64,000 nucleotides of DNA from an uncultured archaeon. GTDB taxonomy: Archaea > Asgardarchaeota > Lokiarchaeia > Sigyniarchaeales > SOKP01. Shown one piece after another: positions 1,058-33,819 of this stretch (the stretch's first letter is position 1; every line of letters starts with the position of its first letter). A program made the position numbers and the translations under genes. Under the pieces are notes generated by a model, which was not told the DNA's origin, ran no database searches, and worked only from the letters and a program-made list of their open reading frames with translations. The stretch covers positions 64,001 through 128,000 of the forward strand of contig CAZALK010000003.1 of assembly GCA_964486045.1 (NCBI GenBank), read 5' to 3'.

Positions 1058-2407
1058 TTACTTTAAAAAATTATAAGCAAATAATGTATATACTTTCACT
1101 GAGTTAATAAAATCTCGAATTTCTATATATTCATTTGTTGTATGAGCAGTTCTGGCACTTCCAGGGCCAAAGAGAATTGTAGGAGGACAATAACCTTCAT
1201 TTCTTAAATAGTGAGCATCCGCAGAAGGGGGATAAAGAAAATAAAACGGTTTCTTCTTGTAGATGTCAGCTACAAGCTGATGTAAAAAATTTAAATCTGT
1301 AGAATTTTCCCAACCTTCCCAATACGAACCTTCTGAAGCGTTGATAATCTCCAAATAGACAAAAATGTCTTCAGGATTTCCTGTAGGTTCATCTCTAATA
1401 TCAAAACCTACTTCTTTTTTGATAAGCTCACTTAAGCCATTTATGATATCATTTTCTTTTTGTCCCGGTGACAATCTAAAATCGATTGTAGCTTCACACC
1501 TATCTGGAACAACATTATCTTTAATTCCCCCTTTAATCAAAGTTAAAACTTTTGTGGATTTTATTGCATCAAGAAGGGTTTTAAGCAATGGTTGTTCATT
1601 TAGAATTCTATTAAAGACATCTTCATTAACAAATGCGTCGCTAACTAATTTTTTCAACTGTTCCTTCTCAATTGGTGGTTTTACATACTGTATATATTTA
1701 TCAAGTTCACCTAATTTTTCTATTATTTTACTCATCATAGATATTGCATTTTTCCCTAGAGTAGGTAATGCTGCATGAGCGGAAATACCATTAGTGACTA
1801 CTTTCACTAACATACGACCTCTTTCACCTAAAATTATTGCTTTTGGTAAAGGACTGAGACCCGTAGGTTCCCCAATTATACAAAAATCTACAGAAATGTC
1901 CTTTAATTTATTATCCAAGCACCATTTGGTACCAAGTTTTCCATTAGTTTCTTCATCTGAAACGGCATTTAGGAACAGAGTTCCAGATAACGTTATTCCT
2001 AATTTTTTTAAGATCTTTAACGTTATAACCATTGCAGCTAGCCCTCCCTTCATATCAGTAGTACCTCTCCCAAAAATCCGTTTCCTTTTAATTGTTGCAG
2101 AAAGAGGGGGCATTTTCCATTCCTCTTCGGAACCGGGGGGAACAACATCCATATGCCCATTAAATAATAGATTTTTACCTTTAGAATCTTCATTCAATGT
2201 AGCTATTAAATTAGCCCGATTATCACCAAAAGGAAAAATTTCACAATTGATACCTACCTCGTTTAAATATTGTTCAATCATCATCGCTACATTTTTCTCG
2301 TTGCCCGGTGGATTGTAAGAATTTGTTTGAATCAAATCCCTTAGAAATTCGATATATTCCTCAGTATTATCTTCAATTTCTTGAATTATCAATTCTTCTT
2401 CCAACAT
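1058..2407 (-). CDS. M20 family metallopeptidase/deacylase (ArgE/DapE-like)
   Basis: FNGHMDVVP, GRGTTDMKGG, DEE, IIGEPT and AHTTNE motifs. Confidence 0.95.
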   Translation of the reverse strand: MLEEELIIQEIEDNTEEYIEFLRDLIQTNSYNPPGNEKNVAMMIEQYLNEVGINCEIFPFGDNRANLIATLNEDSKGKNLLFNGHMDVVPPGSEEEWKMPPLSATIKRKRIFGRGTTDMKGGLAAMVITLKILKKLGITLSGTLFLNAVSDEETNGKLGTKWCLDNKLKDISVDFCIIGEPTGLSPLPKAIILGERGRMLVKVVTNGISAHAALPTLGKNAISMMSKIIEKLGELDKYIQYVKPPIEKEQLKKLVSDAFVNEDVFNRILNEQPLLKTLLDAIKSTKVLTLIKGGIKDNVVPDRCEATIDFRLSPGQKENDIINGLSELIKKEVGFDIRDEPTGNPEDIFVYLEIINASEGSYWEGWENSTDLNFLHQLVADIYKKKPFYFLYPPSADAHYLRNEGYCPPTILFGPGSARTAHTTNEYIEIRDFINSVKVYTLFAYNFLK

Positions 2408-2847
2408 CTTTCCCTTTATTTTATTTATATTTATTTATCAATTACGACAGGATTAAAGAAATGGCTTACTGTAGTGGTGTCTGTTGCATGCTAGGTTTGA
2501 AAAATTTAATCACGGAAGAGAAAATAGCTTCATAATAGGTAGATATAATTAAACTTATCTTAAAGAATTTTCCCTAACTTTCTTCAAATCTCTCCTTTTA
2601 TTAAAATAAGTTCACTACTCTTCCTTTTCTTTTTTTTTTCCTTCCTGTATTAATGCCAAAAATCTTTTTTTAAAGCATGAAACAGAAACCACCAAAGATT
2701 TTTTTTAATTATAGAATATGTTATAAAAAAAAAAGAAGTTATATCTTATATTGAAATTTAAAGTCAAAAAAGAAAGAATTGAGGAACAAATGTAGAAAGT
2801 AAGTGTTAAAAACTATAATATTATAAATTATTATGGAGGAGTAGAAC

Positions 2848-3324
2848 TTGAAAAGTACTAAAAAGTTGGGACAACCAATTTCATCTAAAACAGGAGAACC
2901 ATTAAAGCCGTTTATAAAACCGAGGGATACATTACTACGAGGGATCATAATTATTAACTTTGGATTTTTTATGTGGTTGATAGCATATATAGGGGGAAAT
3001 AATTTTACTGACCCGTTAATTTTTTCATTTATTATAGGGTGTGTATTGATTTCTCGTGCAAAACTTGGCAATAAACATGTGCTGGCTCACCAAATAATCA
3101 TATTAATAAGCGATATCTTTACATTTATTATGGGATTTGTTTTATCAATATACTTTTGGTCAGCACCTAATCATCTATTGTTCATGATAATGGGTATTAT
3201 AATCATTATAGTACTTACCTTGGTCTCCATTATTCATTGTTTATATTGGCTCGTGAAGTTGGAGAAATACAAGGTTAAAAATGAAGTCTTTAGAAGAGAT
3301 CGTAACTCTATTATTTATGAATAA
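2848..3324 (+). CDS. Hypothetical 4-TM membrane protein
   Basis: TTG start after GGAGG SD; four hydrophobic segments. Confidence 0.75.
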   Translation: MKSTKKLGQPISSKTGEPLKPFIKPRDTLLRGIIIINFGFFMWLIAYIGGNNFTDPLIFSFIIGCVLISRAKLGNKHVLAHQIIILISDIFTFIMGFVLSIYFWSAPNHLLFMIMGIIIIIVLTLVSIIHCLYWLVKLEKYKVKNEVFRRDRNSIIYE

Positions 3325-3621
3325 AATATTACTAAATCAGCGGTCGATGCTATTTTTCTCAAGATATTTGCGGAAGTGAAGAAAAATCAGCAAACAGAGG
3401 AATGTTTGAACAACCATGTAGAAGAAAATGGGGGCTTCGCGAGGAAAATGGCACAGAATATATATATGGTGGTTTTAGAGGTAATTTTAGAGAACAATAT
3501 TCTTATTAAATAATTATTTTAAATTTTATACAAGTATAAGATATAAATAATTTATTGTAGTGTTAAGTATTTCTTTTTGAAATTTGATACTTGTAAAAAA
3601 TAATTAGAAATAATTAGAGTG

Positions 3622-3646
3622 AATGAAAATCGTTTAAGCATAATAA
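3622..3646 (+). repeat. 25-bp direct repeat, copy 1 (copy 2 at 4694-4718 inside the wHTH gene)
   Basis: aatgaaaatcgtttaagcataataa occurs exactly at both positions. Confidence 0.85.
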
Positions 3647-3792
3647 TAATAATAGAAAATAAAAGTTATAAAACAAGTTATATTTTTTCTCCAATTTAAT
3701 CTTGTATTGTTAGATAAGTGCACCTTAAACTATTATAAACCGTGCCATTTATCATTATATGACTGTAATCAAAAGGTAAATTGTGAAAGAGA

Positions 3793-4398
3793 ATGAACCT
3801 GAAGAGAGTTAAGATTAAGAACAAAATAATGTCAATTTCTACTAGTATATCTTCTTTTTTTATTCCAATTTTTCAGTACGTTCCCTGTTTATCTATATGG
3901 AGAGGCATAATGAGTGTTCCATTAATAACTTACTTAACCTTCTTCTTTCAAAATCCCAAAATTCTATCTACTGACTATTTTTTTTTATTTGGAAATCATG
4001 GCATTTATTTTATTATCTTTGGTTTCTGGTTTTTTATAATCTCATTAATATTTCAATTAACTCATAGAAATCAGTTAATTCGAACCGGACCATATAAGTA
4101 TATAAGGCACCCTCAATATCTTGCTTTCATTCTTATGACCTTTGGAATGACATTAATAGTGTTTCAGACAACCCCAGTTGTCGAATTTAATCCCTTTCAT
4201 CTTGAAGGTTATACCATTATCTTCTATACTTGGATCGGTGAAGTGTTAGCGTACATAATCTTAGGAAAGATTGAAGATTTTGCATTGAAAGCTAAATATG
4301 GTGATGAATTTATTGAGTATAAAAATACAGTATTTTTTTTGTTCCCAACCATAAATTTAAAGAAAAATGACCCCAAACATAGAATTGAGAAAGAATAA
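3793..4398 (+). CDS. Isoprenylcysteine carboxyl methyltransferase/PEMT-family membrane methyltransferase
   Basis: LIRTGPYKYIRHPQY motif; E..L..KYGDEF.EY C-terminus; TM helices. Confidence 0.85.
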   Translation: MNLKRVKIKNKIMSISTSISSFFIPIFQYVPCLSIWRGIMSVPLITYLTFFFQNPKILSTDYFFLFGNHGIYFIIFGFWFFIISLIFQLTHRNQLIRTGPYKYIRHPQYLAFILMTFGMTLIVFQTTPVVEFNPFHLEGYTIIFYTWIGEVLAYIILGKIEDFALKAKYGDEFIEYKNTVFFLFPTINLKKNDPKHRIEKE

Positions 4399-5104
4399 AC
4401 CAGGTAGCAATTTCAATTACTTTTATATCTTAAAATCATTACTCATAATTTCTTCATTAATTTTATTATTTATCATTTTAGTTCAACTTATTAATTTAAG
4501 TTTATATGAACAACTACCAGCCTTTAGAAAAATAGATAACCTCGAATCAATTACCATTTCTATTCTAATAACCGCAATCTTTTTAATCTCTGCTCTGACA
4601 TTACTTACGTTAAAAGAATTTAGAAGCTATATAATAAGGAGAAAATATATTCAAAACAGTAATTCTTATTTATCTCTTACTAATATCTTTGAAAATGAAA
4701 ATCGTTTAAGCATAATAAATCAAATCCTGGAGAATCCAGGGATTCATCATAACGAATTGCTACGAAATTGCAATTTACAAAAAGGTCAATTACGATGGCA
4801 TTTAGATGTATTGCTAAAATATCATATTATAAAAAAAAAAAAATATGGGCAATTTATTATATATTTTCCGATTACAACCTCGTTTGATGCTAATGAATAT
4901 TTAGGGAATCTTATTACAAAATCAAAAACTACTTTGGAGATCTTAAATATTATTAAAGAAAATCCAGGAATTAATTCTTCTGAAATAGCCCGAATTCTAA
5001 GCCTTTCTCGTAATACTATAAAATATCATATTGATAAATTATCAAAAGAGAAACTGGTTATATTAACCAAAAAAGGTCGTGAAATAGAGTTACATCCTAT
5101 TTAA
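4367..5104 (+). CDS. Membrane-anchored transcriptional regulator (2 TM + tandem winged HTH)
   Basis: NPGIHHNELLR...LRWHLDVL and NPGINSSEIAR...IKYHIDKL wHTH repeats after two TM helices. Confidence 0.85.
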   Translation: MTPNIELRKNKPGSNFNYFYILKSLLIISSLILLFIILVQLINLSLYEQLPAFRKIDNLESITISILITAIFLISALTLLTLKEFRSYIIRRKYIQNSNSYLSLTNIFENENRLSIINQILENPGIHHNELLRNCNLQKGQLRWHLDVLLKYHIIKKKKYGQFIIYFPITTSFDANEYLGNLITKSKTTLEILNIIKENPGINSSEIARILSLSRNTIKYHIDKLSKEKLVILTKKGREIELHPI

Positions 5105-5110
5105 CTTAGT

Positions 5111-5662
5111 TTGTTAATTAAATTTAGAGTGTTAAAAATTAAAATTAAAAATTTTATTTGGATATTGCCATTAATTGGCGGACTTCTAACGCTCATAGCA
5201 ATTTTTACCCCAGCAGCTTATAATTTTGAGAGTAGTGGGCACTTAATTTTTTGGATGTGGGGTTGGTATGATAGATTAGGCATATGGGATTATTGTATGG
5301 TAAAGGGATTAATTTCTGATCCGTTGATCCTTAATATTGGAACTATTTGTACTGTATTAATAATAGTTGTTGCATCCATCTTCGTCGTTAACAGCATTTC
5401 AGCGGCTTTGATATTTAGGAAAGGTAATAGGTTTACCAAAATTGTATTATGGGTATGGTTTTTAAGTGGAATTTTATTTATTATAGCACCAATCTTTTGG
5501 ATGGCAATGGTACAAATTTTTCCACCATTTTCACCAATTCCTGTTGGTAGTGACCCTCCTCTTAATTTTTGGAGGATATTTTTTCCAGGCTGGGCAATTA
5601 TAGCCCCAATTTTAACTGGTGCTTTATCTTGTGGCACTATTATTTTGTCACGGGTGGAGTAA
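5111..5662 (+). CDS. Hypothetical 4-TM membrane protein
   Basis: Four hydrophobic segments; W.WG loop; directly downstream of the regulator. Confidence 0.75.
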   Translation: MLIKFRVLKIKIKNFIWILPLIGGLLTLIAIFTPAAYNFESSGHLIFWMWGWYDRLGIWDYCMVKGLISDPLILNIGTICTVLIIVVASIFVVNSISAALIFRKGNRFTKIVLWVWFLSGILFIIAPIFWMAMVQIFPPFSPIPVGSDPPLNFWRIFFPGWAIIAPILTGALSCGTIILSRVE

Positions 5663-5841
5663 ATCCAATTACAAATGAAAAAATGGATGATACTACTATT
5701 TCAAGAAGCGATATTGTTGGTGTCCCTGATTTATCCACGAAAGCAATCACAGGATCAAATACCAAGTTTATACAGAAAAGTAAAAAAAGCTTTTATATGA
5801 TTGTTGTATTCATATTATCTACTAAATGAGGGTGAAATTAA

Positions 5842-8010
5842 TTGAGAAAAAAATATAGATTAAATCTATTAATAATTGTATTAATTCTATCGTTTCTTTT
5901 TAGTTTCAACAATATTACTCAAAATTACACCAATCTTAGAGATCCTAACGAAGTTGCTAGTGCTGGAGCGCTCAACACTCTTATCGTTGGAACCATGTAT
6001 GGTCCAGTTGACCTTGATCCAATAGTGGCTTGGGATAGTGCGTCATTTGCTGTAATTGATCAAGTAGTTGAGGGTTTATTCGCATATGATTTAGGTGATC
6101 CTGATATGGCATTAATACCGCGACTTGCCAGCGCTTTTGGTACATGGAATAGTGGGGCTACTGAATATACTGTACCCCTCAGAACGGGTGTTACATTTCA
6201 TGATGGAACAAACTTTAATGCTGCTGCTGTTGTTGCTCACTGGGATAGAATTGCCTGGGCTTTAAACAGTACTGGCACTAACACAGTTGGTATAACTCAG
6301 GTAGCTGAGTTATATAAATTTCCAGATGGTACACCTATTGTGAATAATGTCACTGACAATGGTGACAATACCGTAACTTTTTACATAAATGATCCCTTTG
6401 TACCATTTGTATCTCTCTTATGCTTCAGTGCTTCATATATTCAGTCACCTACATATACAGCTACTTTGACAGATTATATTGATACATCTATTGAGATCAT
6501 CGTCGGAACGGGACCTTTTGTTTATGATTCATACGAAGCTGGTGTCGAAGTACTATTTCACGCTTTTGATGATTATTGGAAAGGAAAAGCGAACATTAGT
6601 GAATTAGTTTTTAAAGAAATTGTTGATCCAATAGCCAGAAACAATGCATTACTGGCGGGAGATATTCATTTTTTATCATCCCCTTTATCAACTATGATAG
6701 ACGCTTTCAAGGCTCATCCTAACATAACTGTGTTAGATGCCGGAAAAAAAAACGCAATTACACAATATCTTGGGATGAATAACAATAATATAAATAAGAC
6801 CTTCAGAGAGGCAATTTCATATGCAATCAATTATTCATATATAATCGATGAACTTAGAGAAGGTAATGCTGTCAGAATGAGATCTCCTATTCCAGAAGGA
6901 ATTATGTTTTCTAACACCACATTTGACGTACCGATTTTAAACCTGACACATGCAAGATTGGTAATGCAATCTATGGGATTTGGAGTAGGTTTTAACTTAT
7001 TTGCCGATACTGAATGGATAAATCAGAAAGCCACTGCTCCATTTGCAACATTTAATTATACTTATAATATTGGAAATACGTTGAGAGAAGATTTATTGAT
7101 TCTACTACAAGATAATCTCGGAAAAATTGGAATCAACGTAACCGAAGCTGGTATGACATGGGGAGATTTTATTTACTCGCTCTATGAAATCGGTGGTCGA
7201 CATAGAGATCATTTAGAACTTTATTTCATTGGATGGGGTCCTGATTATAATGATCCAAGCAACTTCATCAATCCATTGTTTACAAATAGATCTGTAGCTT
7301 CTAATGGAGTAGATTATAATGGTTACCTTGCAGCAATAGAGGATGGTAGAGATCCATTTGACCAGAATGACAATGTTCAGCTCTTAATGGAAGCGGCTAA
7401 TATCGAAACCGATCCAGTAGCAAGAGAAGCCATGTATGACAGAATTCAAGAACTTTTGATTGAGCGAGATTTTCCATGGGCTTTAGGTTATGTTTCAAAA
7501 ATATATCATGCTCATCATGTCAATTTAACTGGATTTCAACAAAATGCTTATAATAAGTTAGATTTCTATTCTTGTCAATGGGACTATTATAATCCCGCTA
7601 TTATACCAATAGTTGATTCCCTCTCTATTACTACTCCTGATAGCTCCAGTTCATGGGAAGCAGGTACTATTCATTCTATTGCATGGACATCAACAGGTAG
7701 TATCACAAATGTGCAAATTGAACTCTATATTTCAGGAATTCTTAACTTAGTTCTCACTTCGGGTACCCCGAACGATGGTGAGATATCATGGACAATTCCA
7801 TCTGAACTCACGAATTCTACGTTTTATCAGATAAAAATCACTGATTTGTCTAATTCTTCCACATATGGTTATAGTGATTATTTTGCGATATACGATCCCG
7901 CTATTACTGAAGAACCTATTCCAGGATATAGTCTCTACTTCCTATTTATGATACTAAGTATAGTCTCAGTGGTTCTGATAAAAAAGCAGTATAAACATTT
8001 AAAAAAATAA
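5842..8010 (+). CDS. ABC-type peptide/nickel solute-binding protein (family 5) with Ser/Thr-rich Ig-like domain and IPGY-TM C-terminal sorting signal
   Basis: LDP..AWD, VTFHDGT.FNA, GTGPF, GWGPDY.DP motifs; signal peptide; C-terminus IPGY-hydrophobic-KK. Confidence 0.92.
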   Translation: MRKKYRLNLLIIVLILSFLFSFNNITQNYTNLRDPNEVASAGALNTLIVGTMYGPVDLDPIVAWDSASFAVIDQVVEGLFAYDLGDPDMALIPRLASAFGTWNSGATEYTVPLRTGVTFHDGTNFNAAAVVAHWDRIAWALNSTGTNTVGITQVAELYKFPDGTPIVNNVTDNGDNTVTFYINDPFVPFVSLLCFSASYIQSPTYTATLTDYIDTSIEIIVGTGPFVYDSYEAGVEVLFHAFDDYWKGKANISELVFKEIVDPIARNNALLAGDIHFLSSPLSTMIDAFKAHPNITVLDAGKKNAITQYLGMNNNNINKTFREAISYAINYSYIIDELREGNAVRMRSPIPEGIMFSNTTFDVPILNLTHARLVMQSMGFGVGFNLFADTEWINQKATAPFATFNYTYNIGNTLREDLLILLQDNLGKIGINVTEAGMTWGDFIYSLYEIGGRHRDHLELYFIGWGPDYNDPSNFINPLFTNRSVASNGVDYNGYLAAIEDGRDPFDQNDNVQLLMEAANIETDPVAREAMYDRIQELLIERDFPWALGYVSKIYHAHHVNLTGFQQNAYNKLDFYSCQWDYYNPAIIPIVDSLSITTPDSSSSWEAGTIHSIAWTSTGSITNVQIELYISGILNLVLTSGTPNDGEISWTIPSELTNSTFYQIKITDLSNSSTYGYSDYFAIYDPAITEEPIPGYSLYFLFMILSIVSVVLIKKQYKHLKK

Positions 8011-8540
8011 AAACTTTTTTTTTTACTTTCGTTACAACATTTCATTGATTAACTCTGATCTTTTCATCCGCTTCTGTTATCAACTCCATCAAGTTTAACT
8101 TAAAGCATAAATCTGCTTATAAAGAATTATTAGAGCTATTAAGGATTCATTTAATAATTGGAAACTCTTTCATTAAAAATTTTTTTGAATTATTTTAATA
8201 TTTCATAATCTCGTATAAAATTAATCTAATCTTTAATATCTAGCAAAATGTAGAATTATATCTTTATTATGATAAATAAATTTAATTGAATAAAGAATTA
8301 ATGTTTTAGAACGGTTAGATTAAAAAAAAATAGAAAATGGATCATAAATTTTAAGAAAAAACTCCTTGAAAAAAGTTACTAGATCCTCGAAAAGTAACAT
8401 CTTTTTTCTGCTTAATTTTTACTATAGGAATTATAACCAGATTAATTAAACCTCCCTCATGAGAGGCATTTCGAGCATTTACAAGTGAAGATTTAGACTG
8501 GTCTTCTAACTCCCTAAAAGCAGGTGCACAGAAAGGTTAT

Positions 8541-11500
8541 ATGAAAAAGATTGCCGAAGCATTCTATAGGGAACAAATCTTAAGCGTTTTTGAAGAAGCA
8601 AAGGGGAATCATCAAGAATTGCAAAAGGTTAGGGAAAATATTGTTAAAGCCGTTCAATGGAATTTACTTAAGAAATTATCATTAAGTAGAACTTCTATAA
8701 AATTAGGTAGTCCTATAATTCATACTCTTGGGAATTCAGTCGATGAGCAAAACTCCATATTTAATGGTTTATTTGATAATCTAAAACAGCTTGTAGGTAA
8801 TAAGAAGATATTTGCCGAAGATCAAGACCAAATTGATGGAGGAGCGTTATTTTCGATTTCAGTACTTCAGTGTCTTTTGGATGCTATAGCTTCGTTTGCA
8901 ATTAAGTCTGATGGTATTGTTAATAAGCTTTTCCGTTTCAATACAGCCCTACAGTCTATTCAGGGTACTGAGTTTGAGAACGTTCTAACTCTTGAGATAT
9001 TACCAAGAACAATTCTCTCATATTATGATGCAAAATATGATAAAATGATTGATAAAAACGGGAAAGAAGTTGATCACCGCGAATTGTGGAAAATTCATAC
9101 TCAGACTTCAAGGGAATTAAAAAGTAAACTTTTTGGACCGGCAAGCTATTTTTCCAAAAATGATTATGGTTTATTCGATGTTTTTGGTAGGCAGTATCTA
9201 ATTCGGGGTGACCAATTAATAATTGTTGGAAATATTGCCAAACATTCTAAAGAAGATAGAAGTTTTACATTTGAGCAATCTATGATAGGTTTAGATGCAT
9301 TCAGAAATGTCTATGACACATTATTGGAGGTAGCAGACGATCCTAACAAGTTTAACCCTGATAAGACCACAATTAGAATTAATTTTAACAGTCCTATGTT
9401 TAATCGCGAACTAAATAATATTGAAGCTTTTATCGATGTTGTTTTAACTGACTTGATGAAAAGAGGTAGTATTGGTCAACAAACTGTAGGGGTATCTGGT
9501 CAATATGATACAAAATGGGCCAAATTGTCAAAATCTGATGTAATTAAGTATTATACAATTAACGCATTAAATGAATTGTTACAGAATGTAGAAGGCTACA
9601 TTGGTACTACTCCTGTAGAGAGTAATCTTCTTAAACATTCATTTAGAAAGATGCTTCTGAAAGTGGATTCTAATTTCATAGAGACCTTAAAAAACGATTT
9701 ATTTAAAAAATACAGAATAAATAAAGGAGATATTATAGATTTAGATAATTTTATTCGCAATAAAGTTGCTGGGAATGTTGAACATTACTATGGTGCTTAT
9801 TTAGGGAATGATGGAAGTGTTAAATACGGTTTAGTACTTGGTGCAGTTATAGAGACATATTTACCTGGAGCTTCTAATGAACAAGTTTCAATTTATAATA
9901 TAAAAGATTCCCGATTTGATTCAAGTAATTTGGAATCTAATAAAGATTATGATAAAGAGACAGGAAATTTGTTGGGTCCATACACATTTGCTTTCAAAAT
10001 CAAGGATAACAAGATTACTTATCGGTTATATAAAGTAAGATCAAATCTTAAGTTAGAAGGCGGTTGGCAGATTGGGATCCCAGATTTAGAGACAGGAGAG
10101 ATTATTAGTGTTATAATTACTGATGGAAATGGACGCAAGCTATATGGCAGAATAAAATACGAAGGCTATAGTATAACAGAGAGAGTCGGTGGGGTTCATT
10201 GGTGGCGTTCAAGTAGTATGAAGTCTATAAAAGAGAATAATTATATTAGGAATCTTAAAGGAACAGGCGTAGGAGATTATAGTGGTATACGAGTCATAAA
10301 CGCCATGTTCACTAGATATGGGGATATGAACCAAATAATGTGGGTGACTACAGATTTGATAAACCCATACCTAGATTTTGACTTTTCGCACGATTTTTAC
10401 ACTATACTCTACAAGAATTTTCCTATACCTTCCAGACGACCGAAATCTGGAATTATTAATATGCTTCCATTCTTACGGCAATTTCCGATCACTGCGGATA
10501 TTTTAGCGAAAGAATCGAGTATGCGAGATTTAGTACTAACGCATATTTTCGATATAGCCCAAAAAATTATTGATCATAGTGGACTCTCAGAATATTTACC
10601 AGTATATGATAATATACTCAAAGTCTTAAACGCGTATGAAGACAAATCTGGTGTTATACATTTGGGACCAGGTTATAAAGAATTGAGCCATTTATTTAAA
10701 ACAGTTATTGGTAGTAGTGCTTATAGCTTCAGTTTCAATAATTTTAGGGATGACATCGAAGATATTAATCACTTGACTTACAATAAAGACCAATCCTTCA
10801 AGGATTGGTTAAAAATAGCTTTGGATCTTTATCAAAACTATCAATTACCCTCTAGGGGGAATTCTGATCCCGTCCTAAAGGCATTAGATGAAAAAATTAG
10901 GGCAGAAATTTTCGATTCAATAGGCAATAATAAATTCGTTAAAGGAGGTGTGCCAAGAACATTCTCTGATGGAGATGATTTCTTACAAGGATACGACGGG
11001 CATGAAGATAAAGTGTTAATAGAAGAGATCATTTCTACAACTACCAATCTTTATGGAGGCTTTACTTTATCAAAACTTCTTACAGGTTCAATCTTCGTTC
11101 AGAATGGAAGAGTACAATTTGCATTACTAACTTGGGATTCTTTATTTAAAGCACATAAAAACGCAGGATTAGTTAATGAGCATCTTAATGTTAAATTCCC
11201 CAGTTCCACTTCTTATACCACTGCTCAAAGTCAGGTTGTTGATGAAATGATACTTCGACCTAGTATTGAAGTTACTATTAAATACGGTGTAAACGAGGAA
11301 GTAGAATTTATTCAAATCCCTCATATTCCTACTGATTACTGGGATCCAAACATCAAAAGTCAAAATGAAGTTAGTATCGAAAGTTTAGATTTAACCAAAT
11401 ACTCTAATGGGTTATCTAATCTATTATTAAAATATTGGGGAAAGAAGCAGCGTTCTCAAATTGTTTATAGAACTCAGAGGGCTTATGGAAACCGATTAGT

Positions 11501-12512
11501 TTATAATGTCTTATTTGAAAAATACAAAGAACAAATTGAAAATAATATCGCTGATGATGAGACACAATTTATTTATCTAAATGTAATAGGTCAGTTATTA
11601 TATCAATATATTTATTACGGACATGGTCCAGCTTTAACGAATTATAGAAAAATGTTCCAAAAGTTTTTGGTAGATGGGGGAAAGGAAACACTTGAATTAT
11701 TAGGATTAATACCTTTGCCGACGATTAATGGAATCAATTTTAAAGAAATTATATTAAGCGACCTTGATTTACGTAAATGGTATGATGATGGTATAGTTGA
11801 TATAATGCATAATTCTTTAACACCTATTGGAGTTGTGAGTGTTAAAGAATACAGTGCGAAGGAAATAATTAGAAATCTAAATGAGCCAATTTCGAGTTTT
11901 GGAAACTCTTTAAAAAATTTAGCTCTTAGATTTGGAAAACCATCTAAAGGTTCTAAGAAAATATATATCATCCCCCAAGGCATCACTTCTGGTGGATTGG
12001 GACAGTATTATGAAATCCCCAATCAGTTCATAGCAGCAGCAAATAAAATAGTTAAATTGAATAATAAGGATTTCTATTCTTGGGAAATTGATGGGACAAA
12101 TAACGGTGATAACTTAGTTGGCTTTAATAAGCATTATAAAGATGTTGTAAGAGCCTTTCTTGAAGGGTATAAAACATTATTTATTTTTGCTGCTATCGAA
12201 TCTGGTGGTGAGGTCACTCAAATTGAGGGTATAGGCTCTCTCAATATATTATCTGGTGCTCTATTACCTTCTGAATATGCCGATGATTATACAAATCAAT
12301 TAATAGATGGTTATTTCAATTCAGATAATCATTATCATTCATTGGAAGGCATAACATTCTACGATAGTGAGTTTTATAGCAAAGAAAATAAGTATAATAT
12401 CATAAATATCATGAATTCATTTAGAGCATATAATTCGTATACCGTTCCCTTTTCTAAATTTAATAAATATCAAGAAGCTTGGAACTTAATCAATTCCATG
12501 TTTTCTTTTTAA
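8541..12512 (+). CDS. Large orphan protein (1323 aa); N-terminus probably decayed
   Basis: Uninterrupted 4-kb ORF with no recognisable motif. The same frame continues upstream to ATG 8337 through three stops. Confidence 0.75.
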   Translation: MKKIAEAFYREQILSVFEEAKGNHQELQKVRENIVKAVQWNLLKKLSLSRTSIKLGSPIIHTLGNSVDEQNSIFNGLFDNLKQLVGNKKIFAEDQDQIDGGALFSISVLQCLLDAIASFAIKSDGIVNKLFRFNTALQSIQGTEFENVLTLEILPRTILSYYDAKYDKMIDKNGKEVDHRELWKIHTQTSRELKSKLFGPASYFSKNDYGLFDVFGRQYLIRGDQLIIVGNIAKHSKEDRSFTFEQSMIGLDAFRNVYDTLLEVADDPNKFNPDKTTIRINFNSPMFNRELNNIEAFIDVVLTDLMKRGSIGQQTVGVSGQYDTKWAKLSKSDVIKYYTINALNELLQNVEGYIGTTPVESNLLKHSFRKMLLKVDSNFIETLKNDLFKKYRINKGDIIDLDNFIRNKVAGNVEHYYGAYLGNDGSVKYGLVLGAVIETYLPGASNEQVSIYNIKDSRFDSSNLESNKDYDKETGNLLGPYTFAFKIKDNKITYRLYKVRSNLKLEGGWQIGIPDLETGEIISVIITDGNGRKLYGRIKYEGYSITERVGGVHWWRSSSMKSIKENNYIRNLKGTGVGDYSGIRVINAMFTRYGDMNQIMWVTTDLINPYLDFDFSHDFYTILYKNFPIPSRRPKSGIINMLPFLRQFPITADILAKESSMRDLVLTHIFDIAQKIIDHSGLSEYLPVYDNILKVLNAYEDKSGVIHLGPGYKELSHLFKTVIGSSAYSFSFNNFRDDIEDINHLTYNKDQSFKDWLKIALDLYQNYQLPSRGNSDPVLKALDEKIRAEIFDSIGNNKFVKGGVPRTFSDGDDFLQGYDGHEDKVLIEEIISTTTNLYGGFTLSKLLTGSIFVQNGRVQFALLTWDSLFKAHKNAGLVNEHLNVKFPSSTSYTTAQSQVVDEMILRPSIEVTIKYGVNEEVEFIQIPHIPTDYWDPNIKSQNEVSIESLDLTKYSNGLSNLLLKYWGKKQRSQIVYRTQRAYGNRLVYNVLFEKYKEQIENNIADDETQFIYLNVIGQLLYQYIYYGHGPALTNYRKMFQKFLVDGGKETLELLGLIPLPTINGINFKEIILSDLDLRKWYDDGIVDIMHNSLTPIGVVSVKEYSAKEIIRNLNEPISSFGNSLKNLALRFGKPSKGSKKIYIIPQGITSGGLGQYYEIPNQFIAAANKIVKLNNKDFYSWEIDGTNNGDNLVGFNKHYKDVVRAFLEGYKTLFIFAAIESGGEVTQIEGIGSLNILSGALLPSEYADDYTNQLIDGYFNSDNHYHSLEGITFYDSEFYSKENKYNIINIMNSFRAYNSYTVPFSKFNKYQEAWNLINSMFSF

Positions 12513-12653
12513 TTTTTTTTGTTTTTTATTGTAATTTGATGACAATTTTTCTTAGATAAAAAAGTTTATTTGTTTAAATTTTAACGAGTGTATACATTTA
12601 AATTAATAAATCATCATTTATTTCATTAGACGTGTTTAAAAGTCGAAAGCATT

Positions 12654-13733
12654 ATGAAAGAGTTTAAAATAAATGAATTTTTATCATTGAGATTAGAGGA
12701 TAATAAGGCCAATATTTATGTTGACAATGAATTATTTAGGCAATGTAAGTTCTTATTGATTAATATTCCGATTAAGGATGTAGATACATTTGATGAAATT
12801 GGGTCTATTGATGAAATTGAGATGAGATCTGATCGTTCATTAGAATTCAGGGAGCCTGCTAAGATAAATATTCCTCTTGAGACTGAGTTTTGGGCTCATT
12901 GCTCAAATTTACAAGTTTGGTATGAGAATAATTATGACACATGCCTTTTACATAGTAATTTAGCCTTTCCACTCCTAAAAAGATTAGAAAAAGTTGGGGA
13001 TCCGCTTGCAAAAAGAAGATTTAAGGAAGAGATAGCCAAAAGATTTGAGGGAGGGTATTTTCCTACGATCTATTTTCTATTAGAGGAAGGGTATGACGAA
13101 TATCTTTCGAGGGAAGAATTATTTTTAAGTTTATTAGGACAAGATGAAGAAGCAGAAGAAAAGACAAGAATTATTCTAGAACTGGAAAGATTGATAAACG
13201 ATAAGTTTCATATCGAGGATTTTCTTAATGGCGAATTTAATGGGATTAAAATAGTGAATCATAGAGTCATAGGATTATCAATTGCGCATACAAATATAGA
13301 AATGCTTCCAGAATCTATAGGCAATTTCAAGTATCTAAAAAAGATCTTTATAGATTATACTAAACTAAAAAAGCTTCCAGGGGCATTTAAAAATCTTAAA
13401 TCTCTTGAATTTCTCGACATATCTAATAATGAACTAAATGAAATTCCCGAATCTATTTGTGCGTTAAACACGCTTAAAAAACTTATCATGTGTAATAATA
13501 AGATAATAACAATACCAGAATCTATTAAAAATTTGAAGTCTCTTGAACTTTTAAATCTAGGAGGGAACAGAATCAAGGTTCTACCTGACTCTATTATGGA
13601 AATTCAATCACTTAAGGATATCTTTTTAGAAGATAATGAATTAATCTCACTTCCAGAATCTATAAGAACTATGAATTCTTTGAAATCTTTGAATGTAAGA
13701 GGAAATGAACTCTTGAAATTAGATAAGGGCTGA
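12654..13733 (+). CDS. Leucine-rich repeat protein with Lokiarchaeia-type N-terminal domain
   Basis: EFWAHCSNLQVW.ENNYDT.LLHSNLAFPLLK N-domain, then about 6 23-aa LPESI..L..L..L....N repeats. Confidence 0.92.
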   Translation: MKEFKINEFLSLRLEDNKANIYVDNELFRQCKFLLINIPIKDVDTFDEIGSIDEIEMRSDRSLEFREPAKINIPLETEFWAHCSNLQVWYENNYDTCLLHSNLAFPLLKRLEKVGDPLAKRRFKEEIAKRFEGGYFPTIYFLLEEGYDEYLSREELFLSLLGQDEEAEEKTRIILELERLINDKFHIEDFLNGEFNGIKIVNHRVIGLSIAHTNIEMLPESIGNFKYLKKIFIDYTKLKKLPGAFKNLKSLEFLDISNNELNEIPESICALNTLKKLIMCNNKIITIPESIKNLKSLELLNLGGNRIKVLPDSIMEIQSLKDIFLEDNELISLPESIRTMNSLKSLNVRGNELLKLDKG

Positions 13734-13958
13734 ACTTTTAATATTAGAGTAAATTGCAATTAAATTAGCACGATTATCTCCAAAAGGAAAAAGTTCACAG
13801 TTAATATTTGCATCCTTTAAATATTGTTCAATCTTCAATGCAACATTTTTTTCATTGCCAGGGGGATTGTAAGATTCAGTTTGAATCAGATCTCTAAAAA
13901 ATTCAATATATTCCTCAGTATTATTTTCAATTTCTTGGATTATTAATTCTTCATTCAA
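13719..13958 (-). pseudogene. Truncated 5' copy of the M20 peptidase gene (first ~68 codons)
   Basis: 56/66 aa identical to the N-terminus of 1058..2407; homology stops abruptly at about 13755. Confidence 0.92.
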
Positions 13959-14122
13959 CGCTTTACCTCAAGATTTATTGTTCTTATTTTAATTTTAAAG
14001 AAAATTCGATTGCTATAAATATTTTGTTATATGGCAATCTAACTGATAGATTTAAAAATTTAGGAAATTTTAATACTTTTAAATGATTTTATAATCAAAA
14101 ATTAGGTTTCACGGTTATTTTC

Positions 14123-17100
14123 TTGATTCGACAAAAAAAAGAGATTAAAAGAATAGTCATTGTCGTAATTTTTATTACATTTATTTTAATAACCAATTTC
14201 CACTTTCTTAATCATTCCAATCTAATAGATGAAAATAATGACGAAAATCAAGGATTAGAGATTTTTCCTAAAACTTCTGATCTTAATATAACAGATTTTA
14301 TTCTTGGTAGTGGAGACGACCAAGATGTTAGAATATATGTAAATAACGAATCTAGCAATTTAAACGATAACGAAGATTTTTTCGATATTCCCTCAATTCC
14401 TACAGACGATATGTTTCTCACTTATGGTGATTTTAATTTCACATTTCAAAATAATTACACAACAGATTACATTCTTGAGGATGACACTGCTTTAGATGCA
14501 GCAGATTTCATATCCTTTGATTTTGATGAGGATCCATCCAATTCAGATTATATTCCGGGAGTTGGAACATCAGTTATTGGAGGATCGTTCAGCGATTTAG
14601 TTGACAGTTCAAATTCAACCAACCTGTGGTTACAATCAAATGCCACAAATAATATATTAAATTTTACAATAAAAGCAAATTATACAGATGAAACTTATAC
14701 AAACATAGGGGTGATCAATGGTAATGTAGAGTTCGATAGAACTGATATATTAGCTCTAATTCTCTCATTACTTTTTGACCTTACTCTTGATGCTAATTTG
14801 ACAATAAGAATAAAGGATTATACACAACCAACTTGGGTTAATTTGACTGATCCAATTCTGGTTAATAGTAGTATAGGTATACAGGAGATTAACCGTAAGA
14901 TTATTAATGAAAATTTGAATTTCATTGATTTATCAGATGTTTGTTATTTACAATTCTTTTTTGAGAGAAGTGACCTTGCTTCATTTGATGGCCGATTCTA
15001 CAACTTAGAATTAGAATCAACCTACGCATTTGATCTACCTATAACTAATAATAGCTATGTCGCTTTAGAATTTGACTTAAAGGGGGAAAATTCGACTGTA
15101 AATGGATTTAATGTTTGGATAAGGACCTTAAATTTGACTCAGGCGGCAATAACACAACTAAATATTACACTGTATAGAGCAGATGGTACTTTAGTTCGAT
15201 CAGGTGGGACAGGTGGGAGTTTACGAGGTACTCAGTTAAACCCAGATTACAATGAACCGATAGATCCAATATTATTATTAAATTATACTAAAGACAACAT
15301 TTCCTATTTTGAGTTTAATACTTCTAACACTCAAAATCTAAACCTTTCAAATTACTTTGTTGTGATAAAATCAAATAACTCAAATGAAGTGTACAGTCTA
15401 GTAACTTTGCCCTATATTGATTATACCGCAGATGGGATAACTGAACACCAATTAATAACTACAATCAATGATGGAATTAGTTGGTCATTAGCTAAAAAAC
15501 AAGTAGATACTACCATTTCAACATACCCTTCAGGTCAATTAGATGCTAGTCCTTTTAGGTTGAACGTCACTAGAGGATATATGCCATCAGATTTTATATA
15601 CAATGCTACCAATACACTAAAAATTCAAGATATTCCAATAGAAAATTTAGAAATTAGCTCCTATCCATATAATGAAAGTTCTTATTTAACTTGGGGATTA
15701 GGGAGATGGACTAATACCTTTATTGAACCAATTGAAGATACTCTCGCAAATGAATTTGAAGTTTACTTACAATGGAATAAAACTGTTATTGAGGGTTTTA
15801 AATTCAATGTTACTTATTCTATAAAAGCTTATTGGATTGTAGGCGCTCAAGCATTTTATAATGCAACTTATAATGAAAATCCTGAATGGAATTTAGAGTT
15901 CGATTTTGATAAAAATAATTCAAAATTCAATAATTGGGATTTTTTTGAATTTTGGTTTGTTTATCCTAACTTCATGAATGCTCATAATTTGACAAATCCA
16001 AATGGAGAAGAGTTTCTTTGGTTATTAGAACAAGAATCAATTTTAACAGAGAATCCAACTATGTTTAAACTTGTAATTAATGAATCTTATTCCAGTCTTA
16101 ATGGTTCATACACACTTAATTTAACGAGTTACAATTTCATTCAACAGATTCACAGTTATATTAACTATAATGGAATTTTATCAGAAACAGTTGGTTTCAT
16201 GTATGGAGATAACATATCGATTAGCCTTGATATCCAAGACCAGAATCTTGACGCCCCTATAAGTGGTGATGCAAACGTTACCCTTTTTTACCCAAATGGA
16301 ACTAAATATCCTGGAGCGATATTGTTTGATTCAACAGGAGATGTTGATGGATCAGTATTATCTTACGATTTCAATAACAACACGATTCTAGATTTGACAG
16401 ATGCGGTTACAGTTTTTGGGGAATATAAATTAGGAATCCTTTGGTTAAATGGTTCCGCCTTAGGATGCAAAAAGATAACTTTATATATTGATTCATACGA
16501 TCTCGATTTATATAATTTAACCTATTCTTCGAACCTAGGGACTAATGTTCTTATTGGAGAAATAAATAATAAGGTATTTCAAAATTACACAATGTTAATT
16601 GCATCAATTAACGATACAACAGGTATCCCAAATCCAAATTTTTATGCTATAAATAATTCAAATATCAATCAAGAATATTCTTATAATTTTGAAGGATGGG
16701 ATCTACCCATTTTGCTTGAATCATTTCTGCAAAGTGAAAATATCTTAAACCCGAATGAAATTATCAACTTTAAGACAACAATTCAAAATGCACACGAAAC
16801 GTTCAATTTAACTATTAAAATCCTTACACAAATAGTATCTTATCTCAATGAAGATTGGATTATAGCTGAAAATTCTTCAAACTCAATTACATTAAATTCC
16901 TCCGGTTCCCCAAATGATAGTTATGAATTTGACTTTAATCTTACAATTCCAAATTTAAATATAGCTACACAAACTTGGATGGGTGTAAATGCACCTATCA
17001 GATTAGGGGGTGCAAAAACAATAGTTACTTTATATATCGAGGATAACGTTGCAGGGATATATAAAAGTCCTGAATTCTCACTTTTAAGTAATAAAACAAG

Positions 17101-18256
17101 TGATAATTTTGAGGGTTATATTCTTGGTTTGACAATTTCTGAAAAGATCACAAGTCGAAGCATTTTATATGAATTTGACAGAGACGAATGTATTTACTTT
17201 CCAGATAATTCATCATTTTTAGTTAATATCATTGATGAAAATTATGTTAGCAGTTATAGACAATTCAATGACGAATTTTCTATAAAACTTAATAGTATAT
17301 TTACAAATATCACTATTGAACCAAACTCTCCCATCAAAGGTCAATCAATAAATTTTAGTTCAACTTTAACTACTGAATTTGGAGTAGTGTTATCAAATAA
17401 AAATGTCACTTGTGAGTATTTTGACTCGAGTTCATGGGTAGAAATTGCTACAGGTATAACTGATTCCAACGGTCACGTTACCTTTAATATTGACACTATG
17501 GTTATCGATTTTGAGGATGATTTGCAATTACAATTATCTTGGGATGGGGATATCATAAATGGAGTTTCAAAGAATGCTTTCATAAATATTTTGCATGAAA
17601 CAAACGGCATTTCAATTTTAGTTAGCCAGATTGATGTTTTAATATACAGAAACAGACTAACAACAATAAAATACATTCTAAGTAATATAGGAGACTCTGA
17701 CTTAAGACTTTTTAACATTACAGTGGATATTGAAAATAATTTACAATATACAACCGTAGAAATAAATTATGTTGAATTAAATTGGTTCTCTTCTGGAGAT
17801 AACACAGATATAATAATTGAAATTTCAATATCAGAAGTCAGCCAACTTCAAGTTAATTTTACAATTACAGCCCAAAATGTTATTACAGGAGAAATATTCA
17901 CTTTCTTCAAGGAATCTTCTTATGCCGTTTTTGATCCTCCAATAACAGATTATGTAATTGAGTTTTTCATGTTTACTATAATTGTCATTTTCGGTATTAT
18001 TTGGCTTGCAGCAATAATCTATACTCGTCGAGTAAGGAAAAGAATTGAAGAACCGGTTGAAGTTCCGTTGAGAAAACCGAGAAAGGGCAAATATATAATG
18101 GTATCCGATCTTAAAAAACCAACTCCAGAGAAAAAGGTTCCCAAGAAAAAAGTAGAACAAAAAGAAGTCAAACCAAAAAAGACGACAGACTTAGATTCCT
18201 TGTTAGAAGAAAGAGGCTTAGCTGAAAAACAAAAAAAGAAAAATTCTAAAAAGTAA
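14123..18256 (+). CDS. Large cell-surface glycoprotein, single C-terminal TM, Lys-rich cytoplasmic tail
   Basis: Signal peptide, dozens of N-x-S/T sequons, beta-rich composition, TM near residue 1280-1300. Confidence 0.8.
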   Translation: MIRQKKEIKRIVIVVIFITFILITNFHFLNHSNLIDENNDENQGLEIFPKTSDLNITDFILGSGDDQDVRIYVNNESSNLNDNEDFFDIPSIPTDDMFLTYGDFNFTFQNNYTTDYILEDDTALDAADFISFDFDEDPSNSDYIPGVGTSVIGGSFSDLVDSSNSTNLWLQSNATNNILNFTIKANYTDETYTNIGVINGNVEFDRTDILALILSLLFDLTLDANLTIRIKDYTQPTWVNLTDPILVNSSIGIQEINRKIINENLNFIDLSDVCYLQFFFERSDLASFDGRFYNLELESTYAFDLPITNNSYVALEFDLKGENSTVNGFNVWIRTLNLTQAAITQLNITLYRADGTLVRSGGTGGSLRGTQLNPDYNEPIDPILLLNYTKDNISYFEFNTSNTQNLNLSNYFVVIKSNNSNEVYSLVTLPYIDYTADGITEHQLITTINDGISWSLAKKQVDTTISTYPSGQLDASPFRLNVTRGYMPSDFIYNATNTLKIQDIPIENLEISSYPYNESSYLTWGLGRWTNTFIEPIEDTLANEFEVYLQWNKTVIEGFKFNVTYSIKAYWIVGAQAFYNATYNENPEWNLEFDFDKNNSKFNNWDFFEFWFVYPNFMNAHNLTNPNGEEFLWLLEQESILTENPTMFKLVINESYSSLNGSYTLNLTSYNFIQQIHSYINYNGILSETVGFMYGDNISISLDIQDQNLDAPISGDANVTLFYPNGTKYPGAILFDSTGDVDGSVLSYDFNNNTILDLTDAVTVFGEYKLGILWLNGSALGCKKITLYIDSYDLDLYNLTYSSNLGTNVLIGEINNKVFQNYTMLIASINDTTGIPNPNFYAINNSNINQEYSYNFEGWDLPILLESFLQSENILNPNEIINFKTTIQNAHETFNLTIKILTQIVSYLNEDWIIAENSSNSITLNSSGSPNDSYEFDFNLTIPNLNIATQTWMGVNAPIRLGGAKTIVTLYIEDNVAGIYKSPEFSLLSNKTSDNFEGYILGLTISEKITSRSILYEFDRDECIYFPDNSSFLVNIIDENYVSSYRQFNDEFSIKLNSIFTNITIEPNSPIKGQSINFSSTLTTEFGVVLSNKNVTCEYFDSSSWVEIATGITDSNGHVTFNIDTMVIDFEDDLQLQLSWDGDIINGVSKNAFINILHETNGISILVSQIDVLIYRNRLTTIKYILSNIGDSDLRLFNITVDIENNLQYTTVEINYVELNWFSSGDNTDIIIEISISEVSQLQVNFTITAQNVITGEIFTFFKESSYAVFDPPITDYVIEFFMFTIIVIFGIIWLAAIIYTRRVRKRIEEPVEVPLRKPRKGKYIMVSDLKKPTPEKKVPKKKVEQKEVKPKKTTDLDSLLEERGLAEKQKKKNSKK

Positions 18257-21193: not shown

Positions 21194-21393
21194 TTAAAAA
21201 ACCTTGTGATTTAATGCTATTATGTTTTATTAGCTGTAACTTTAGTTTAAGTTCTCAATTAAATTAAAAATATAACTCAAATTTTTTCTTTATGTATTAG
21301 TTGAAGATAATTTTAGAATCAAGAAGATCCCCAATTCCAAATGTTTTAAAGTAGAATAGAAAGCAAAAAATTTTTAAAAAACCTTGTGATTTA
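21194..21393 (-). promoter_or_regulatory. Duplicated 20-bp element (BRE/TATA-like on minus strand), 180-bp spacing
   Basis: ttaaaaaaccttgtgattta at 21194-21213 and 21374-21393, each followed about 20 bp later by gc(t/a)gtaacttt. Confidence 0.6.
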
Positions 21394-21687
21394 CATAATA
21401 ATCTGTTTAGGAGGCAGTAACTTTTAATTTACTTTTTATGGAATTTGTTTTTAATTTTACTTCCCTCAAATGCAAGTATCATGAATATCTAAACTATGTT
21501 CAGTCTGAGATTCAATTATCACTAGGAAAACTAGATGGATTTTCATTCTTTGTATTGTATTCTAAACAATGTTCAATTGTTAATAGATGTTTCCGATTTA
21601 TTGGAATTTCAGGTCATTTAGTGTTGTTTAGTAGAATGGGATCCAAGTGGGAAAGATTTATATAGTAATATTTCCATTTAATTAATA

Positions 21688-21887
21688 ATGAAAAAAGAAA
21701 TAATAAATGAACAAATCAATAGAGATGGTCAAGAAAACTTACGTATTAGTTCAGTTCTACTAACAAATATTTTTAGTGAAGACCAAAAATAATGTTTCTT
21801 ACATTAAATCCTTCTCATATAATAGAGAAAATGCTAGAAACCTTCATTGAGGGGAAACCCGGAAATTCTAGACATTATAAAATTTGA
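21688..21887 (+). other. Two overlapping short ORFs (34 aa + 31 aa, TAATG junction) or one frameshifted small gene
   Basis: ATG 21688-TAA 21792 and ATG 21792-TGA 21887, behind aaagatttatat BRE/TATA. Confidence 0.4.
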
Positions 21888-32307: not shown

Positions 32308-32497
32308 TTAAGTCTATCTCACAAATTTTTCGCTTTAATTTTCAAATATTTCATTAAATTTTAAAATTATTATCAAAAATGGTTCGGGAATTTCCAAATA
32401 AAACCATATTATTATAAAAAGAGATATAAATGCTTAAAGTGAATCTACTATTTCTATTATTGTTTTTAAGAAATCTCTGGGCACTATATATTTATTC

Positions 32498-33775: not shown

Positions 33776-33819
33776 ATTATATCCCCTAATTATCTAAAAA
33801 ATAGATTTTTAAAAAAATT

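What the first reader, a model, noticed from the sequence alone, without database searches (positions are those of the whole stretch)
2201..13958. Integrase-free ~11.5-kb island inside an M20 peptidase gene that brings its own replacement 5' end
Seen: the first ~68 codons of the M20 gene occur twice in the same orientation (about 2201-2400 and 13755-13955; 56/66 aa identical, many synonymous changes). The right copy has its own start and SD and faces the divergent 14123 gene, but is cut at codon ~68. Accessory genes lie between the copies and no recombinase is present. Inference: foreign DNA from a related lineage entered using the M20 gene as a homology anchor (homology-facilitated illegitimate recombination), or this is a decayed gene-restoring integrative element. 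The intact gene would then be a chimera. The shared stretch attaaattagc.cgattatc.ccaaaaggaaa marks the boundary.
Basis: partly seen in the sequence, partly recalled or inferred. Interest (0 to 1): 0.78.

Follow-up and report, generated by a model that had tools for sequence, protein, structure and literature searches.

The report
Gene-start-swapping insertion in Asgard archaeon
An 11.5-kb block of accessory genes entered a peptidase gene of a Loki-type Asgard archaeon and brought a new start for that gene, leaving the old start stranded; it is one of about 30 such scars in this genome, and most likely the work of the host's own recombination rather than of a mobile element.

Summary
The duplication is real: codons 1-68 of an M20 (ArgE/DapE) gene occur twice, 171/204 nt and 57/68 aa identical, with mostly synonymous differences. 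Forty congeners have the empty site. A 99.8%-identical strain, assembled separately, carries the whole island, so it is not an assembly chimera. The stranded copy keeps the native divergent promoter, so it is the resident start. That the intact gene is a chimera is supported by position and trees but not statistically proven. No recombinase, transposase or recognisable nuclease was found. The cargo is a patchwork of Lokiarchaeia genes and fragments, and the last gene is cut at the joint. The same gene-restoring layout occurs at about 30 other genes (34 restoring against 4 wrong-way; pooled dN/dS 0.15). Three that I tested are empty in relatives. The best reading is one-sided, homology-anchored capture of a relative's DNA by host recombination; single-crossover integration of a circle is the main rival. 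The mechanism class is known from bacteria; a 5'-end case and this density in an Asgard archaeon are less familiar. This scan had already noted the genome-wide pattern on other contigs.

The parts
1058..2407 (-). Intact M20 ArgE/DapE-family deacylase, 449 aa; probably an incoming 5' end on a resident body
   Evidence: PF01546 + PF07687; TIGR01910 over cut-off; trees
2202..2415 (-). Left repeat: incoming 5' end (codons 1-68 plus ribosome-binding region); weak similarity continues to about 2437, then non-native sequence
2446..2535 (+). Short fragment resembling a heterodisulfide-reductase A cysteine motif, directly upstream of the new start; weak match, family name from my own knowledge
   Evidence: blastx against the genome's own ORFs, E 0.002
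2620..2689 (.). 70-bp dispersed repeat, three 93% copies elsewhere (C11 twice, C19)
2848..3324 (+). 158-aa protein, membrane-like by sequence; 94% nt copy on C14
3336..3479 (+). Internal 48-codon fragment of a core gene on C1 (81% aa); U32-peptidase-like by my recognition, not tested by HMM
3793..4398 (+). ICMT/PEMT-like membrane methyltransferase
   Evidence: PF04140
4367..5104 (+). Winged-helix regulator with a hydrophobic N-terminus
   Evidence: PF13412, PF24266
5111..5662 (+). 183-aa protein, membrane-like by sequence; 92% nt copy on C22
5842..8010 (+). Family-5 solute-binding protein with an Ig-like domain and a Loki-CTERM tail
8541..12512 (+). 1323-aa ORF: C-terminal region of a Lokiarchaeia giant-protein family (homologous open frames of 3,382 and 12,779 aa); no known domain or fold
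12654..13733 (+). LRR protein, apparently cut at its 3' end at the right joint
   Evidence: 6 aa after the last LRR core against 16-224 aa in 20 paralogs
13734..13755 (.). Non-homologous joint between cargo and resident M20 codon 68; no match of this stretch elsewhere in the genome beyond chance-level words
13755..13958 (-). Right repeat: stranded resident 5' end, codons 1-68
13959..14122 (.). Native divergent intergenic region (presumed promoter), 88-94% identical to the empty-site region of nine close relatives
14123..18256 (+). Conserved 1377-aa gene of unknown function that faces M20 directly in relatives

Best explanation
A linear DNA fragment from a related Lokiarchaeia lineage carried an M20 allele with accessory genes just upstream. 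It paired with the resident M20 gene and crossed over by host homologous recombination near the conserved metal-binding motif (about codons 81-91). Its other end, broken inside the LRR gene, was joined without homology to resident codon 68. The result is an additive insertion: a working chimeric M20, 11.3 kb of cargo, a stranded 68-codon start, and an untouched promoter for the 1377-aa neighbour. Shown: insertion into an otherwise empty site, which copy keeps the native flank, purifying divergence of the two copies, no detected recombinase, recurrence across the genome. Inferred: linear donor, crossover position, uptake route, and that selection keeps only events that restore the target gene.
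For: Empty site in 40 congeners; only G000 of 54 genus genomes shows the short copy. Native intergenic region stays with the fragment. pS 0.48 against pN 0.09. In the codon 1-68 tree the fragment lies outside a 97/92 clade that holds the intact start, while the gene body groups with L105, the closest backbone relative, and G022. Donor-type states at 6/6 sites in codons 56-81 and resident-type at 6/6 in codons 91-104. LRR cut at the joint. Genome-wide 34 restoring against 4 wrong-way fragments, p 6e-7; pooled dN/dS 0.145; three more islands empty in relatives; no mobility gene shared among cargoes. A neighbouring 7.2-kb intergenic insertion, absent from the sister strain, shows how a donor could gain cargo next to a start codon.
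Against: The AU test does not reject a clade of the two copies (p 0.23), and a whole-gene breakpoint scan is borderline (p 0.051) and points elsewhere. The crossover estimate rests on one or two sites beyond codon 68. No donor allele with cargo upstream of M20 was found. M20 is mosaic across the clade, which blurs the signal. In bacteria HFIR is rare and usually deletes about 1 kb rather than leaving a duplication; in E. coli, circularisation plus single crossover was about 10 times commoner (PMC3240628). No uptake system was tested.
Confidence: 0.55

Rival explanations
1. Single-crossover (Campbell-type) integration of a circle made by end-joining foreign fragments, one tile being the 5' end of a relative's M20 gene. 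The duplication then follows automatically and nothing is deleted.
For: Cargo is a patchwork of fragments. With G013 as the reference, the fragment matches at most sites in codons 1-51 and the intact copy at 6/6 sites in codons 56-68, as a crossover inside the repeat would give. Some genome-wide repeats extend 79-350 bp into the next gene. Shown experimentally in E. coli (PMC3240628).
Against: Closer relatives (L105, L084, G022) side with the fragment in codons 56-68, and the donor-type tract seems to run past codon 68. Twenty-three of 28 repeats end within 40 bp of the gene end, which fits a donor synteny break better than a random tile.
Confidence: 0.22
2. Decayed integrative element of the SXT/prfC or dusA type, which supplied a new 5' end by site-specific recombination and later lost its integrase.
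For: Same outward anatomy. ICEs integrate in the 5' end of prfC and restore their targets (PMC5812530). One other island, on C23, holds a tyrosine-recombinase-like gene.
Against: No integrase or remnant even at E 1. No perfect core at the edge. About 30 unrelated targets with repeats of 45-580 bp. No viral contig encodes the M20 start. The island's right part has no SNP over 7 kb against the sister strain.
Confidence: 0.08
3. An older tandem pair of full M20 paralogs, followed by cargo insertion and deletion of most of the upstream copy.
For: Tandem M20 copies exist in G023 and G010.
Against: The G023 pair is far more diverged (59-60% aa to the query each, different types) and has no cargo between. 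No close relative has two copies. Genome-wide, duplication and decay predict all four fragment geometries about equally, but 34:4 is seen.
Confidence: 0.08
4. WHO-like homing: an island-encoded endonuclease cuts naive M20 alleles and repair copies in the island with a resistant gene end.
For: Yeast WHO elements give the mirror layout (PMC7282813). Earlier scan notes propose this for other loci of this genome (unchecked).
Against: No nuclease family hit in any cargo protein. The island has not spread among the relatives searched.
Confidence: 0.05
5. Chimeric assembly of two strains.
Against: Both junctions and the full island recur in a second sample (three scaffolds with 55-bp overlaps) and both junctions in Logan contigs. 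The copies are 16% diverged, too far for repeat collapse.
Confidence: 0.02

Closest known systems
Homology-facilitated illegitimate recombination (Streptococcus, Acinetobacter, Pseudomonas, E. coli; PMC3240628)
   Same: One homologous anchor, one non-homologous joint, no element-encoded recombinase, a broken donor end.
   Different: Laboratory HFIR is rare and usually leaves a deletion of about 1 kb; here at most a few codons are lost and a diverged gene-end duplication remains, at about 30 loci in an archaeon.
Insertion with long target duplication (Furuta, Abe and Kobayashi 2010, PMC2853133)
   Same: Cargo under 20 kb, a long direct repeat of target sequence, no mobility gene, empty site in relatives.
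   Different: Defined for restriction-modification cargo in bacteria, with repeats about 93-100% alike in the cases I read; no archaeal case survived that screen. Here the repeat is 84% alike with purifying divergence, and the cargo has no RM genes.
C-terminal displacement at rhs, CDI and T6SS effector loci (PMC5361080)
   Same: An incoming homologous gene end displaces and strands the old one; HFIR was proposed.
   Different: Those are toxin loci with 3' swaps and arrays; this is a metabolic gene with a 5' swap and a single event.
WHO homing elements at yeast FBA1 (PMC7282813)
   Same: Chimeric target gene about 85% diverged at the replaced end, plus a stranded fragment.
   Different: No endonuclease detected, no repeated homing or cluster, 5' rather than 3'.
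SXT/R391 at prfC and dusA-integrating islands (PMC5812530)
   Same: Entry into the 5' part of a coding gene with the target left working (supply of a new 5' end is from my own knowledge).
   Different: Those carry an integrase and a short att core; neither was found here.

Membership tests
HFIR product | Homologous anchor on one side | tested here: met
   M20 homology on the left; no homologous flank at the right joint
HFIR product | Non-homologous joint on the other side | tested here: met
   LRR cut and resident gene cut at codon 68
HFIR product | Recipient DNA lost between crossover and joint | tested here: inconclusive
   Donor-type tract to about codon 74-81 on one or two sites
HFIR product | Linear donor taken up by transformation or conjugation, RecA/RadA-dependent | not testable with these tools
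   No culture or genetics; uptake genes not searched
Insertion with long target duplication | Direct repeat over 30 bp, insert under 20 kb, empty site, no mobility gene | tested here: met
   214 bp, 11.3 kb, 40 empty genomes
Insertion with long target duplication | Restriction and modification genes in the insert | tested here: not met
   No RM family among cargo Pfam hits
Integrase-driven integrative element | Tyrosine or serine recombinase in the element | tested here: not met
Integrase-driven integrative element | Short identical att core at both ends | tested here: not met
   Edge stretch differs between copies and is a conserved coding motif
WHO-type homing element | Endonuclease gene between restored gene and fragment | tested here: inconclusive
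   No HMM hit; C-terminal model (pLDDT 83) has no clear fold match; much of the rest is poorly modelled
WHO-type homing element | Repeated homing, with clusters or spread among relatives | tested here: not met
   Single fragment, only in G000 and its sister strain among those searched
M20 ArgE/DapE deacylase (target gene) | TIGR01910 above cut-off | tested here: met
   261.5 bits against 217.6

The most novel reading that the evidence does not exclude
This Lokiarchaeia lineage gains much of its accessory genome by a frequent, integrase-free, host-encoded route in which DNA from related species is anchored in any gene end, swaps that end and adds cargo. Such a route would both enlarge the genome and keep reshuffling core-gene termini, and it runs several times denser here than in the congeners sampled.
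Probability: 0.3. Interest if true: 0.75.

Novelty: new variant of a known kind. Interest (0 to 1): 0.5.

Why it matters
How Asgard archaea gain their large, variable gene sets is open. The Asgard papers I read describe integrase elements, transposons, tandem duplication and HGT islands (PMC11529989, PMC8813620, PMC13247210); in keyword look-ups I found no mention of gene-end replacement scars, though my search was limited. About 30 scars in one genome give datable, testable records of gene flow between related lineages, with cargo that includes LRR, PCI, JAB-like and SPFH proteins. They also warn that the ends of core genes may be foreign, which matters for gene trees. The M20 island by itself carries ordinary accessory cargo; its value is as a clean, independently assembled 5' example with a well-sampled empty site.

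Tried and rejected
Recombinases: five tyrosine recombinases in the genome, none in the island, no serine recombinase. Rfam: nothing in 1-22,000. The sigma-70 promoter scan was at chance level and is not suited to archaea. Viral contigs: no M20 5' end; the scan with alignment A1 could not run. 1323-aa ORF: no Pfam, PHROG or NCBIfam hit, no usable Atlas hit, no PDB fold match for either model. My guess that its WEIDG motif is Vsr-like was not supported; absence of a match does not exclude a nuclease. G+C does not mark the island (30.9% against 31.0% on the right). The AU test and breakpoint permutation were not significant. G013 alone suggested a crossover at codon 51-52; closer relatives did not uphold it. 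Second M20 copies in G052 and G066 are distant paralogs (50% aa), not donors. The genome-wide scan only sees events that leave a fragment, and BLAST detection favours conserved pairs, which may bias dN/dS downward. Only 20 unknown cargo proteins of other islands were scanned with Pfam.

Full report
Setting. The window is C3:64001-128000 of a 5.18-Mb, 45-contig MAG. Named homologs of the M20 protein come from Lokiarchaeia/Promethearchaeota, and the contig is a public sediment metagenome scaffold.

Observation. The minus-strand gene 1058-2407 is an ArgE/DapE-type M20 deacylase. Its first 68 codons recur at 13755-13958 in the same orientation: 171/204 nt, 57/68 aa, 18 synonymous and 11 non-synonymous codon changes, no gaps; pS 0.48 and pN 0.09. 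Both copies therefore diverged while functional, and the cut is later.

It is an insertion. In 23 of 24 congeners of the first draw, M20 faces the 1377-aa gene across about 166 bp; the one exception ends at a contig edge, and in G023 a second full copy lies in tandem. Seventeen more genomes show the same layout, as do metagenomic loci. Only G000 of 54 genus genomes shows the short copy. The intergenic region 13959-14122 is 88-94% identical to the empty-site region of close relatives, whereas the sequence upstream of the intact gene loses similarity within about 35 bp. The stranded copy is thus the resident start.

It is not an artefact. A strain 99.8% identical, from another sample, carries the left junction, the middle and the right junction on three scaffolds that overlap by 55 bp; Logan contigs show both junctions too. 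Reads could not be examined.

Is the gene a chimera? In the first genome set the fragment is closer than the intact start to 16 of 17 relatives, but closer alleles split both ways. In a tree of codons 1-68 the fragment sits outside a 97/92 clade that contains the intact start, unresolved beside L105, the closest backbone relative. The gene body groups with L105 and G022. A two-panel site test gives donor-type states in codons 56-81 and resident-type states in 91-104, placing the crossover near the metal-binding motif, past the fragment end. This is suggestive only: the AU test does not reject sisterhood of the copies (p 0.23), and M20 is mosaic across the clade.

Cargo. All genes lie on the plus strand: two membrane-like proteins with 94% and 92% copies elsewhere in the genome, an ICMT-like protein, a wHTH regulator, a family-5 binding protein with a Loki-CTERM tail, the C-terminal part of a giant-protein family, and an LRR protein, plus small scraps of other genes and a 70-bp repeat. 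The LRR ends 6 residues after its last repeat core, against 16-224 in 20 paralogs, 22 bp from the joint. No recombinase or remnant was found. The 1323-aa protein has no recognisable domain or fold. The cargo looks native to Lokiarchaeia in both homology and G+C.

The pattern is genome-wide. A self-comparison found 26 3' fragments downstream and 8 5' fragments upstream of their parent genes on the same strand, against 4 in the non-restoring arrangement (p 6e-7). A second setting gave 40 against 9. Identities run from 72 to 98%, and pooled dN/dS is 0.145. Tandem duplication with decay predicts no such bias. Three further islands (C5, C8, C23) are empty in one to four of the five relatives tested. 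Cargo is heterogeneous; one island holds a tyrosine-recombinase-like gene and one a DDE transposase. The outer edge of the repeat lies within 40 bp of the gene end in 23 of 28 cases, while the inner edge varies. In 1.6 Mb from five other Loki genomes I found two events where about 9.5 were expected at G000's rate (P 0.004), so the process exists elsewhere but is denser here. I found this pattern before consulting earlier scan notes, which report it for other contigs of this genome and similar scars in other genomes. Those notes are unchecked and are not independent evidence.

Mechanism. The simplest account is host recombination with one anchor. A relative first gained cargo just upstream of M20. 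A neighbouring 7.2-kb insertion, absent from the sister strain and placed about 13 bp from a start codon with loss of 34 bp, shows that this step occurs. A fragment broken in the LRR gene then crossed over inside M20 and was joined at resident codon 68. Events that keep the gene and the neighbour's promoter survive, and 3' swaps, which need no new promoter, outnumber 5' swaps 26 to 8. A circle integrating by single crossover gives nearly the same product and is not excluded; it was the commoner route in an E. coli test (PMC3240628).

Comparison. It works like HFIR and like insertion with long target duplication (PMC2853133), and it mirrors rhs/T6SS displacement (PMC5361080) and yeast WHO elements (PMC7282813). 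It fails the tests for an integrase element and lacks the RM cargo of the Furuta class; homing is unsupported. Verdict: real, a new variant of a known kind, interest 0.5, most of it owed to the genome-wide pattern.

Noticed in passing
G000 C3:53114-60340 (L051:3114-10340), just left of the window: A second 7.2-kb integrase-free patchwork insertion in a divergent intergenic region; replaces 34 bp, leaves no duplication, absent from the 99.8%-identical sister strain. Its 646-aa ORF has a GIY-YIG-like motif by eye but no Pfam hit.
   Followed up: partly
window about 21242-21874; L116:12826-13701: The sister strain has a different segment here, an ArdC-N-like ORF with 84-85% copies on C13 and C19 of G000.
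   Followed up: no
window 14123-18256; L116: Sister-strain SNPs cluster in two short tracts of the 1377-aa gene while 7 kb of the island's right part has none, which suggests recent homologous recombination within the species.
   Followed up: partly
L031 (G022:C18): G022's M20 is 81% identical to G000's although its neighbours are only 53-78%, so the M20 body appears to have moved between species.
   Followed up: partly
L041:4370-7122 (G023) and L020 (G010): Tandem M20 copies of different sequence types at this locus; G010's second copy is cut by the contig end.
   Followed up: partly
L215 (G061:C95), L214 (G000:C10), L216, L218: The giant-protein family reaches a 12,779-aa open frame, and in four of five homologous loci an LRR gene directly adjoins its 3' end.
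   Followed up: no
L120 (G000:C5:13391-25372): An 11.4-kb island flanked by a 346-bp, 85% repeat spanning the end of one gene and the start of the next; empty in four relatives.
   Followed up: yes
L123:10150-11388 (G000:C23): A tyrosine-recombinase-like gene (42% to one on C25) inside a 3'-replacement island; may be a true integrative element.
   Followed up: partly
window 2620-2689: 70-bp T-rich dispersed repeat with three 93% copies and weaker ones; origin unknown.
   Followed up: no
L093:1-2055: A metagenomic M20 homolog (61%) with a different, same-strand gene upstream; may be a paralog or another occupied site.
   Followed up: no
window 31030-35106: Three tandem ORFs of 425-428 aa with similar hydrophobic N-termini.
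   Followed up: no
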